Program-made: the position numbers and the translations under genes
In this document: positions 58,692-60,143 of the stretch, one piece after another
How the letters are laid out: each line of letters opens with the position of its first letter
How positions within the stretch are numbered: the stretch's first letter is position 1
Assembly (NCBI RefSeq): GCF_044324785.1
Contig: NZ_CP172127.1
DNA from: Escherichia coli
Lineage (GTDB): Bacteria > Pseudomonadota > Gammaproteobacteria > Enterobacterales > Enterobacteriaceae
DNA: 64,000 nucleotides
Strand: one strand, 5' to 3'
Notes under the pieces: generated by a model
The model's input: the letters and a program-made list of their open reading frames with translations, nothing else
Database searches by the model: none
Told to the model about the DNA's origin: nothing

Positions 58692-60143
58692 TCAGCTAAA
58701 CAACATCGCGATTTTTCCGAGAGCATAACCTATCACCAGCACCGTTAAGCTGATTTTGATAATGCTGGTAATGCTCTGTGGTTTTTCATCCTCATCATTT
58801 TTTTCTTCGTGGTTTTCAGGTGTTGGCTCATCGACATCTTCATCCTCCGGCTCGAGTTTCACTTTCGTCAACAGCATCCGGGTGATAATGGCCTCTAATG
58901 GATGAGCATCTCCACCTTCCAGCCTTGTATTAAGACGGGCCAGCATCTCTTGTTTCGGGAACGCTTCCAGCACAACCTGTTCCGCTACCCGATACAAATC
59001 CAGTAACGGTGAATCTTGTTCTGTCTCGCTACCGACTCTCGATTTCCACCACGCCCATGCTTTGCGCTTGAAGAATAACGACTCAATAAACGATTGACCT
59101 AACGGCGATAATTTTCCGCTATGTAAAATTTCCGCCCATAACAGCCGCGTCCGGGCGCTCTCACCAGGAACATATTTCAACGGTTGACCTTGCGCATCAA
59201 CCATGCTCTGCGCTTCGATAACCATCACTAACAGCGCGAAATAATCCGGGCAATGACGCTTGCTCCACTGCAACAACAAATTATCGGCTTGTGTAGATGG
59301 GTAACTCTCCCGGTATGCGCAGAGATCGGCAAGCAGGCTTTCCCCCTCGCCACAGTACAACCGTTGCGCACACTGGTAATAACGGGCATCTTCGCTTTCT
59401 GGTTCTTCTGCTTGCCACTGTTGGGCAACAGGAATGAGTTCCGCCATACCTGTTTTCACCGAGCTGTACCAGCGCAACAGTTTGCGATGTAACTTGACAT
59501 CATCAGGAATGAACCACGGACCTTCCATTGCCATAAACGCAGTGACATAGTCGGGATGGTAACGGCAGCAGCGTTCCAGCGCGAAGTAATACTCAACAGT
59601 CTGGTTCTGCAACGCGACGGGATATTCCAGAAGGCTAAGGAAACCGAAACAATCACCAGCCTGAATGGCCTCAAGAAAAGCCTCCCTTTCTTCCTCATCC
59701 ATTCCTTCGCTGTCATTAAACGAATGCCAGTTCAAACGCTCTGCCAGCAAAGAAGCACAATTTAATGAAAGATATCGCGCTTCTATAGCGATTGCACACA
59801 GCGGCCAGCGTAATTGATCGACATCCTCCATGTTCCAGGTATTTAATTGCTGAATAAATTTCTGCCAGGCGGAGGGCTGAAAACGATCACTTTCTGAATC
59901 CAGTAATGTCCTGAATGCACGTAGTATTTCATGTTCAGCGGCGGCATCTTTACCTTCATTATCTGCTTCCTCGACAGGATTTACCGCCAGTCGCAGCGCC
60001 TCTTCATAGGCCTGGCGTAATGCTTTAAACCCCTGCGGATCGGTTTCGGGATGACACAACGGTAAGCGAGCAAGATAAGCCTGGCGGATAATGTCTATTT
60101 GCGTCGTGCTTTCAATTTCGAGGATTTGCCAACATGTTTTCAT
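58692..60143 (-). CDS. djlC: J-domain-like co-chaperone, C-terminal membrane anchor
   Basis: 483-aa ORF; N-terminal J-like region ...[17 protein letters not shown]...; C-terminal hydrophobic segment [17 protein letters not shown]. Confidence 0.85.

What the first reader, a model, noticed from the sequence alone, without database searches (positions are those of the whole stretch)
59990..60143. DjlB and DjlC J-like domains carry HPE rather than canonical HPD, plus C-terminal tail anchors
Both paralogues read ...(C/F)[10 protein letters not shown]... where canonical J-domains have the invariant HPD tripeptide needed to stimulate Hsp70 ATPase; the same motif is in djlB near 62780..62940. Both proteins end in a single hydrophobic segment consistent with tail-anchored membrane topology. 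A D-to-E substitution is conservative but unusual and may tune specificity towards HscC.
Basis: seen in the sequence. Interest (0 to 1): 0.35.

Follow-up and report, generated by a model that had tools for sequence, protein, structure and literature searches.

The report
Known HPE J-domains of DjlC and DjlB
The window carries the E. coli djlC and djlB genes, membrane-tail-anchored helpers of the minor Hsp70 chaperone HscC whose J-domains read His-Pro-Glu instead of the usual His-Pro-Asp; this is real and conserved, but it is already in the literature.

Summary
djlC (58692-60143, minus strand) and djlB (61513-62940, minus strand) both encode HPE at residues 31-33, as [12 protein letters not shown] and [12 protein letters not shown].

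Four tests place this tripeptide in the HPD column, in the loop between J-domain helices II and III:
- an alignment with K-12 DnaJ, CbpA, DjlA and HscB;
- a family profile that hits only J-domains in the PDB (E = 6e-8);
- two AlphaFold2 models;
- a Foldseek search of the N-terminal model.

Each protein has one membrane-grade hydrophobic segment, at the extreme C-terminus.

Glu is not a local quirk. It occurs in 113 of 113 N-terminally complete close homologues and in 83 of 84 diverse relatives down to about 17% identity. In all seven relatives' loci with readable flanks, the HPE-type gene lies next to an HscC-type Hsp70 of about 560-573 aa, often with a DUF1266 gene.

All of the main points are published: HPE in DjlB and DjlC (PMC10410713, PMC13254874), the tail anchor, and HscC-specific ATPase stimulation by DjlC (both reviewed in PMC8215388).

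The idea that Glu tunes specificity towards HscC stays plausible but untested. HscC keeps the DnaK residues that contact Asp35. Nearby allosteric positions do differ.

Verdict: already known, low interest.

The parts
58692..60143 (-). djlC (ybeV) CDS, 483 aa: an N-terminal J-domain, an all-alpha TPR-like middle domain (Pfam PF27158 DjlB_C_2nd), a disordered acidic linker and a C-terminal TM helix.
   Evidence: ORF; RefSeq annotation of the orthologue; 96.9% aa identity to K-12; AF2 model with mean pLDDT 88.8.
59979..60143 (-). DjlC J-domain core, residues 1-55: helix I 4-8, helix II 16-29, loop 30-35, helix III 36-54.
   Evidence: AF2 secondary structure. The family profile hits 38 PDB sequences, all J-domain proteins, best E = 5.9e-8. 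Foldseek top hits are J-domains. The Pfam DnaJ match is sub-threshold at 19.2 bits against a gathering score of 27.8.
60045..60053 (-). DjlC His31-Pro32-Glu33 codons (CAT CCC GAA).
   Evidence: aligned to the HPD of DnaJ, CbpA, DjlA and HscB.
58698..58772 (-). DjlC C-terminal transmembrane helix (tail anchor), residues about 458-482; one residue follows it.
   Evidence: KD19 maximum 1.99, the only segment at or above 1.6. AF2 helix 458-482, preceded by a low-confidence linker with pLDDT below 50 at 435-455.
61513..62940 (-). djlB (ybeS) CDS, 475 aa; paralogue of djlC, 49% aa identity overall and 61% over the first 70 residues.
62842..62850 (-). DjlB His31-Pro32-Glu33 codons (CAT CCA GAA).
61519..61593 (-). 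DjlB C-terminal hydrophobic segment (putative tail anchor), residues about 450-474.
   Evidence: KD19 maximum 2.37, the only segment at or above 1.6. This protein was not modelled by AF2 here.
56962..58632 (+). hscC (ybeW), 556 aa: the short Hsp70 that partners DjlC, convergent with djlC.
   Evidence: Pfam HSP70 E = 1.4e-116; annotation; alignment with DnaK and HscA.
60140..60847 (-). ybeU, a DUF1266 protein; its stop codon overlaps the djlC start codon (ATGA).
   Evidence: Pfam DUF1266 E = 3.8e-45; junction sequence.
62937..63644 (-). ybeR, a DUF1266 protein; its stop codon overlaps the djlB start codon (ATGA).
   Evidence: Pfam DUF1266 E = 1.2e-45; junction sequence. The annotated start gives 235 aa.

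Best explanation
These are the E. coli genes djlC and djlB, which encode class C J-domain co-chaperones of the specialised Hsp70 HscC. Each protein starts with a divergent but genuine J-domain in which the catalytic loop between helices II and III reads His-Pro-Glu instead of His-Pro-Asp. Each ends in a single C-terminal transmembrane helix that tethers it, tail-anchored, to the cytoplasmic face of the inner membrane. The most likely mechanism is as follows. The anchored J-domain docks on ATP-bound HscC over the interdomain linker. Glu33 then plays the role that Asp35 of DnaJ plays on DnaK, hydrogen-bonding to the conserved Arg and Gln (HscC R146 and Q341, equivalent to DnaK R167 and Q378). 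This triggers ATP hydrolysis and client capture at the membrane. What is shown here: the motif, its position in the fold, its near-invariance in the family, the tail segment, and the genomic linkage to HscC-type Hsp70s. [quoted passage not shown] What is inferred: that Glu33 contacts the conserved Arg and Gln, and that the extra methylene contributes to partner specificity.
For: Sequence and identity. HPE occupies residues 31-33 in both ORFs. Orthology and synteny match the annotated djlC and djlB of K-12 and ECA64.

Position in the fold. HPE aligns to the HPD of K-12 DnaJ, CbpA, DjlA and HscB, with H and P invariant. A profile of the family's first 88 residues matches 38 PDB sequences, all J-domain proteins, at E down to 5.9e-8. 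In those alignments 'hPEedPeG..FkaLReAYe' pairs with 'HPDKNPDGaeqFKQISQAYE'. In the AF2 model of full-length DjlC (mean pLDDT 88.8) the helices are 4-8, 16-29 and 36-54, so residues 30-35 form the loop. The isolated N-terminal model gives J-domains as nearly all of its top 44 Foldseek hits, including DnaJ bound to DnaK (5nro_B), with TM-scores up to 0.65.

Conservation. HPE occurs in 113 of 113 N-terminally complete close homologues. In a non-redundant alignment of 84 relatives reaching about 17% identity, position 33 is E in 83 and D in 1, while H31 is less conserved at 77 of 84.

Linkage to HscC. An HscC-sized Hsp70 (560-573 aa) is adjacent in all 7 relatives' loci with readable flanks.

Tail anchor. 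There is a single membrane-grade segment, at the C-terminus, and an AF2 helix at 458-482.

Literature. HPE in DjlB and DjlC is stated in PMC10410713 and PMC13254874. HscC-specific stimulation by DjlC and the tail-anchored insertion of DjlC are reviewed in PMC8215388.
Against: Neither window protein reaches the Pfam DnaJ gathering score: 19.2 and 21.4 bits against 27.8. A single-sequence PDB search gave only E = 1.4 to a J-domain. The Foldseek E-values for the small domain are individually not significant, at 0.3-1. The specificity role of Glu has no direct support. The direct HPD partners on the Hsp70 side (R167, Q378, P419; L391 in 7 of 8) are unchanged in HscC-type proteins, so nothing on the Hsp70 side obviously demands a longer side chain. 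DjlB's function and membrane insertion rest on analogy with DjlC. No J-domain-HscC complex was modelled.
Confidence: 0.9

Rival explanations
1. Glu33 is a selected specificity determinant. HPE, together with HscC-specific changes around the docking site, would form an orthogonal J-domain/Hsp70 pair. This would insulate HscC from DnaJ, CbpA and DjlA, and insulate DnaK from DjlB and DjlC.
For: E is kept in 83 of 84 diverse relatives, although a single third-position change would give D, and it is better conserved than His31. HPE-type JDP genes are adjacent to HscC-type Hsp70 genes in 7 of 7 informative loci from distant taxa. HscC-type Hsp70s differ consistently from DnaK and HscA next to the HPD contact site: T at DnaK L392 (8 of 8), S/T at D477 (8 of 8) and N at D481 (7 of 8). 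D481 is the residue that clamps R167/I168 in DnaK-ATP (roles of these residues from PMC8215388). The literature reports that only DjlC stimulates HscC.
Against: The direct partners of Asp35 are unchanged. Specificity could lie elsewhere. DjlC has L24 and A25 where DnaJ has the basic K26 and R27. HscC lacks the DnaK 208-211 loop that contains D211, but so does HscA. No swap experiment was found in the searched literature. The Hsp70 sample is only 8 HscC-type sequences against 2 others, so the covariation is anecdotal.
Confidence: 0.35
2. HPE is functionally neutral. Glu and Asp would be interchangeable at this position, and the family carries Glu only because its founder did.
For: The substitution is chemically conservative. 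PMC13254874 describes HPE as the only tolerated replacement of HPD. About 1% of all J-domains carry HPE, in several unrelated architectures (PMC10410713). One relative with RPD exists in an otherwise typical Hsp70-JDP-DUF1266 module.
Against: Across relatives as low as about 17% identical, neutral drift should have produced many D variants, because E and D codons differ by one third-position change. Only 1 of 84 has D.
Confidence: 0.2
3. The N-terminus is a degenerate, inactive 'J-like' domain (type IV JDP). DjlB and DjlC would then act independently of Hsp70 ATPase stimulation.
For: The Pfam DnaJ score is below threshold. The canonical HPD is absent. Helix II has fewer basic residues than in DnaJ.
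Against: DjlC is reported to stimulate HscC ATPase (Kluck et al. 2002, as reviewed in PMC8215388). The whole HPExDPxGF..LR.AYE.A signature is strongly conserved. Linkage to an Hsp70 gene is obligate-looking.
Confidence: 0.04

Closest known systems
E. coli K-12 DjlC (YbeV) and DjlB (YbeS), co-chaperones of HscC (Kluck et al. 2002; Peschke et al. 2018; reviewed in PMC8215388)
   Same: These are orthologues: 96.9% and 96.0% aa identity, the same gene order (rihA-hscC-djlC-ybeU-ybeT-djlB-ybeR), the same HPE motif and the same C-terminal anchor.
   Different: Only strain-level substitutions. Within the first 75 residues, DjlC differs at N62D and G64E, and DjlB at Q6K, S11E, Q12E and D48E (window residue first, K-12 residue second). 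None touches the motif.
[quoted passage not shown]
   Same: The helix I/II/III architecture is shared, with a conserved tripeptide in the II-III loop. His and Pro are identical. The helix III motif F-K-x-L/I-x-x-A-Y-E is shared.
   Different: Glu replaces Asp. The segment between HPD and the conserved Phe is 6 residues shorter than in DnaJ, and about 3 shorter than in DNAJA1-type domains. L24 and A25 replace the basic K26 and R27 of DnaJ helix II. Sequence identity is only 12-22%. The Pfam score is below the gathering threshold.
Wider HPE-type J-domain clade (about 1% of J-domains, PMC10410713), including the ~800-1200-aa relatives found here
   Same: They share the N-terminal signature W.ILGI.PT.D...IR.AY...LP..HPE.DP.GF..LR.AYE.A and the DjlB_C_2nd middle domain. 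They also lie next to an HscC-type Hsp70.
   Different: The relatives carry other C-terminal modules in place of the simple tail anchor: a DUF805 membrane domain, or long TPR arrays. A few have NPE, KPE or RPD instead of HPE.

Membership tests
J-domain (Pfam PF00226 DnaJ) | The sequence matches the family profile at the curated threshold. | tested here: not met
   DjlC scores 19.2 bits and DjlB 21.4 bits against a gathering score of 27.8. Some relatives pass: P0138 29.0, P0160 32.6, P0217 31.5. In the reverse direction, a profile of the family's N-termini finds only J-domains in the PDB, at E down to 5.9e-8.
J-domain (Pfam PF00226 DnaJ) | A compact helical fold with an antiparallel helix II/III hairpin. 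| tested here: met
   AF2 gives helices at 4-8, 16-29 and 36-54, with block pLDDT of 88-96 in the full-length model. Foldseek on the isolated domain returns J-domains as nearly all of the top 44 hits, for example 2m6y (rmsd 2.6 A over 64 columns), 2och (TMt 0.65) and 5nro_B. Individual E-values are weak, at 0.3-1.
J-domain (Pfam PF00226 DnaJ) | An invariant His-Pro-Asp tripeptide in the helix II-III loop. | tested here: not met
   The tripeptide is at the right position, but it reads His-Pro-Glu in both proteins. The literature treats HPE as the one tolerated variant (PMC13254874).
J-domain (Pfam PF00226 DnaJ) | Stimulates the ATPase of a partner Hsp70. | not testable with these tools
   [quoted passage not shown] 2002, as summarised in PMC8215388). 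For DjlB it is assumed by homology.
DjlC/DjlB family (Pfam PF27158 DjlB_C_2nd; HscC co-chaperones) | Orthology and synteny with E. coli K-12 djlC and djlB next to hscC. | tested here: met
   96.6% nucleotide identity over 6.9 kb with the same gene order; 96.9% and 96.0% aa identity. Homologues carry a precomputed PF27158 hit.
Tail-anchored inner-membrane protein | A single transmembrane segment within about 30 residues of the C-terminus, with no other TM segment or signal peptide. | tested here: met
   The only KD19 windows at or above 1.6 start at 457-465 in DjlC and 446-457 in DjlB. The maximum elsewhere is 1.36 and 1.53 respectively. AF2 gives a helix at 458-482 of 483.
Tail-anchored inner-membrane protein | Experimentally demonstrated membrane insertion with a cytoplasmic N-terminal domain. 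| not testable with these tools
   Shown for DjlC by Peschke et al. 2018, as cited in PMC8215388. Not shown for DjlB.
Type IV / 'J-like' proteins with a corrupted, non-functional HPD | Loss of the HPD motif together with loss of Hsp70 ATPase stimulation. | not testable with these tools
   The motif is altered, but the literature reports retained activity on HscC. The near-invariance of Glu (83 of 84) argues against decay.

The most novel reading that the evidence does not exclude
The HPE tripeptide may be one half of a co-evolved, orthogonal interface. The other half would be the HscC-type changes N448 (DnaK D481), T357 (DnaK L392) and S444 (DnaK D477). On this reading, the unit that is really conserved across phyla is a three-gene module of HscC-type Hsp70, HPE-type J-protein and a translationally coupled DUF1266 protein. 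The DUF1266 protein would be an undescribed third component, either a client adaptor or a regulator.
Probability: 0.25. Interest if true: 0.45.

Novelty: already known. Interest (0 to 1): 0.12.

Why it matters
HPD is the most conserved feature of J-domain proteins. Variants that still work show what the Hsp70 ATPase trigger actually requires, and how cells keep parallel Hsp70 systems from cross-talking. For E. coli DjlB and DjlC, the HPE variant, the tail anchor and the exclusive pairing with HscC are already documented, so this finding adds nothing new to annotation. Three points go modestly beyond the papers read here. First, Glu is near-invariant, and more so than His, across a clade that reaches Firmicutes-like genomes. 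Second, the gene is nearly always next to an HscC-type Hsp70 and frequently next to a DUF1266 gene. Third, HscC-type proteins keep the direct Asp35 contacts but alter neighbouring allosteric residues. Together these give concrete mutants to test.

Tried and rejected
- Single-sequence phmmer of the DjlC N-terminus against the PDB gave only insignificant hits. The DNAJB2 J-domain came up at E = 1.4, although in the correct register. I replaced this search with a family profile.
- NCBIfam has no model for DjlB, DjlC, YbeU or YbeR.
- Foldseek with the full-length model returned only weak TPR/alpha-solenoid matches (E at least 0.05) and no J-domains, because the large middle domain dominates. I therefore modelled residues 1-88 separately.
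- The profile of the full-length alignment (A4) was dominated by TPR hits, from the TPR-like middle domain and the TPR-fused relatives. J-domain hits there reached only E of about 1e-4.
- The one 'HPD' seen among the close homologues (P0010, and similarly P0123 and P0207) is an N-terminally truncated fragment. Its HPD lies in the middle domain ([10 protein letters not shown]), not in the J-domain.
- The context of P0256 (L010) was uninformative because the contig is only 4 kb. The upstream gene fragment is the C-terminus of an ABC ATPase, not an Hsp70.
- I considered explaining Glu by a compensating change in its Hsp70 partner residue and rejected it. R167 and Q378 are invariant in all 8 HscC-type sequences.
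- YbeU (DUF1266) has no relative of solved structure by sequence.

Full report
**What is at the coordinates.** The interval 59990-60143 lies at the 5' end of a 483-codon ORF on the minus strand (58692-60143). Its product begins [51 protein letters not shown]. A paralogous 475-codon ORF (61513-62940, minus strand) begins [51 protein letters not shown]. In both, His-Pro-Glu occupies residues 31-33. The codons are 60045-60053 (CATCCCGAA) and 62842-62850 (CATCCAGAA).

A megablast of 56900-63800 against complete E. coli genomes matches 4433 of 5426 genomes. Identity to K-12 MG1655 is 96.6% and the best match is strain ECA64 at 98.7%. The annotated genes under the match are hscC, djlC ('co-chaperone DjlC'), ybeU, ybeT, djlB ('J domain-containing protein') and ybeR. 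The window proteins are 96.9% (DjlC) and 96.0% (DjlB) identical to the K-12 proteins. The two paralogues are 49% identical to each other, and 61% over the first 70 residues.

**Is HPE at the HPD position of a J-domain?** Four lines of evidence agree that it is.

1. I aligned the first 75 residues of the window and K-12 DjlC and DjlB with DnaJ, CbpA, DjlA and HscB, which I fetched from the K-12 record. HPE falls in the HPD column, and His and Pro are two of only three invariant columns.
2. Pfam's DnaJ model aligns residues 4-47 to model positions 2-51. The scores are below the gathering threshold: 19.2 and 21.4 bits against 27.8. Run in the other direction, a profile built only from 55 family N-termini (A5) hits 38 distinct PDB sequences at E up to 0.01. 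Every one is a J-domain protein; the best are dnj-12 at 5.9e-8 and DNAJA1 at 7.7e-8, and the list includes DnaJ 1xbl and 5nro_B and CbpA. In the alignments 'hPEedPeG...FkaLReAYe' pairs with 'HPDKNPDGaeqFKQISQAYE'.
3. An AlphaFold2 model of full-length DjlC, built from an 84-sequence alignment, has mean pLDDT 88.8 and pTM 0.74. It has helices at 4-8, 16-29 and 36-54. Residues 30-35 (C-H-P-E-T-D) therefore form the loop between helices II and III. A separate model of residues 1-88 gives the same topology.
4. Foldseek of that small model against the PDB returns J-domains for nearly all of the top 44 hits. Examples are 2m6y (rmsd 2.6 A over 64 columns), 2och (TMt 0.65) and the DnaJ J-domain bound to DnaK (5nro_B). 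E-values for such a small domain are individually weak, at 0.3-1.

That criterion is not met.

**Tail anchor.** A Kyte-Doolittle scan with a 19-residue window finds membrane-grade hydropathy (at or above 1.6) only at the extreme C-termini. DjlC reaches 1.99 ([19 protein letters not shown]) and DjlB reaches 2.37 ([19 protein letters not shown]). The best segment elsewhere scores 1.36 and 1.53 respectively. The AF2 model shows a helix at 458-482 of 483, preceded by a low-confidence acidic linker with pLDDT below 50 at 435-455. This is the defining architecture of a tail-anchored protein.

**How general is Glu?** Among 120 close homologues from Escherichia, Salmonella, Citrobacter, Enterobacter and Pseudocitrobacter, all 113 with an intact N-terminus have HPE at residue 31. 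The one apparent 'HPD' is a truncated fragment whose HPD lies in the middle domain.

An exhaustive HMMER search of 1.84 billion representatives found 1499 relatives at E up to 0.001. The listed ones share the signature W.ILGI.PT.D...IR.AY...LP..HPE.DP.GF..LR.AYE.A. I built a non-redundant alignment of 84 full-length relatives reaching about 17% identity to DjlC. In it, position 33 is Glu in 83 and Asp in 1. His31 is less conserved: 77 H, 5 N, 1 R and 1 K. Pro32, Pro36, Gly38 and Arg43 are invariant. Glu and Asp codons differ by a single third-position change, so this retention points to selection for Glu itself. That last step is inference.

**Genomic linkage.** I looked up contigs for nine diverse relatives.
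- In every locus with enough flanking DNA (7 of 7), an Hsp70 gene of 560-573 aa, the HscC size class, is adjacent. These are L007, L008, L009, L011, L015, L016 and L017/18.
- The other two relatives lie on contigs too short to judge: L010 for one and L013/L014 for the other.
- A DUF1266 gene abuts or overlaps the J-protein gene in L007, L008, L013, L015 and L017. The same holds for ybeU-djlC and ybeR-djlB in the window, where stop and start codons overlap as ATGA.
- The long relatives replace the simple tail anchor with a DUF805 membrane domain or with TPR arrays.

The gene neighbours in L009 (an rsmB-PP2C-PASTA kinase-rsgA-rpe cluster) and in L017 (YfmQ) suggest Firmicutes-type genomes. That is my inference from the neighbours, not a tool result.

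**Mechanism and the specificity idea.** According to the review PMC8215388, in the DnaK-J-domain crystal structure:
- H33 bonds the backbone of linker residue L391;
- P34 packs on P419;
- D35 hydrogen-bonds R167 and Q378;
- basic residues R22, K26, R27, K48 and K51 pair with E206, D211, E217 and D477;
- D481 clamps R167/I168 in the ATP state.

I aligned the window HscC and seven HscC-type Hsp70s encoded next to HPE-type genes with DnaK and HscA. R167, Q378 and P419 are invariant, and L391 is kept in 7 of 8. So the direct partners of the tripeptide are unchanged. The neighbouring positions are systematically different. L392 becomes T in 8 of 8, D477 becomes S or T in 8 of 8, and D481 becomes N in 7 of 8. 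The 208-211 loop containing D211 is absent, but it is also absent in HscA. In window HscC numbering these positions are R146, Q341, T357, S444 and N448. On the J side, DjlC keeps R20 (DnaJ R22), K40 (K48) and R43 (K51), but has L24 and A25 in place of K26 and R27.

The simplest reading is that Glu33 does the job of Asp35 on the same Arg/Gln pair. Partner specificity would then be spread over several positions, and Glu may or may not be one of them. This is inference. No complex was modelled, and I found no D/E swap experiment.

**What is already known.**
- PMC10410713 (PNAS 2023) reports 2,921 HPE J-domains, about 1% of the total, and names DjlB and DjlC as examples.
- PMC13254874 (2026) states that HPE is the only tolerated replacement of HPD, that it is found in E. 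coli DjlB and DjlC, and that these interact with HscC.
- A 2026 preprint already treats DjlC-class J-domains as the cognate class of HscC across bacteria.

Every element of the finding is therefore published. The specificity suggestion appears in the literature in similarly hedged form ('additional fine-tuning').

**Verdict.** Interest is low. The residual open points are whether Glu is selected for orthogonality with HscC and what the co-conserved DUF1266 partner does. Both are testable with the mutants and assays listed under next steps.

Noticed in passing
window 60140-60847 (ybeU) and 62937-63644 (ybeR); loci L007, L008, L013, L015, L017: The DUF1266 genes overlap the start codons of djlC and djlB (ATGA). 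The same DUF1266 + HPE-J-protein pairing, next to an HscC-type Hsp70, recurs in relatives only about 17-29% identical to DjlC. DUF1266 has no relative of solved structure by sequence. Only one paper in the searched library mentions it, and I did not read that paper. DUF1266 may be an uncharacterised third component of the HscC system.
   Followed up: partly
window 59785-60557 versus 62582-63354: ybeU-djlC and ybeR-djlB form an old tandem duplication. Four collinear direct-repeat blocks have a constant spacing of 2797 nt and 71-83% nucleotide identity. The Sel1-repeat gene ybeT (60949-61503, plus strand) lies between the two copies.
   Followed up: partly
window 58692-60143, DjlC residues about 85-430: The DjlC middle domain (Pfam PF27158 DjlB_C_2nd in the precomputed annotations) is an all-alpha solenoid in the AF2 model. 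Part of it (family-profile positions 228-303, not DjlC residue numbers) matches consensus TPR proteins. In distant relatives the same domain is followed by long bona fide TPR arrays. It is probably the client- or partner-binding module.
   Followed up: partly
relatives P0236, P0251, P0256, P0263, P0264 (NPE), P0244 (KPE), P0213 and P0242 (RPD): Some family members have lost the His of the tripeptide (NPE, KPE) while keeping Glu. Two have RPD, and one of these, P0213, sits in a complete Hsp70-JDP-DUF1266 operon (L017). Loss of His is normally regarded as inactivating, so these variants are unexpected.
   Followed up: no
window 56900-63800: This locus is only 96.6% identical to K-12 at the nucleotide level, and just 2 records reach 99% or more. 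993 of 5426 complete E. coli genomes have no match at all. About 740 more carry only part of the locus; for example, hit H11 covers 69% of the query, which does not reach djlB-ybeR. The window therefore comes from a relatively divergent Escherichia lineage, and the locus is variably present.
   Followed up: no
window 62937-63671: The mechanical ORF list extends ybeR to a TTG start (244 aa). RefSeq annotates the ATG start that gives 235 aa (62937-63644), which matches ybeU in length.
   Followed up: yes
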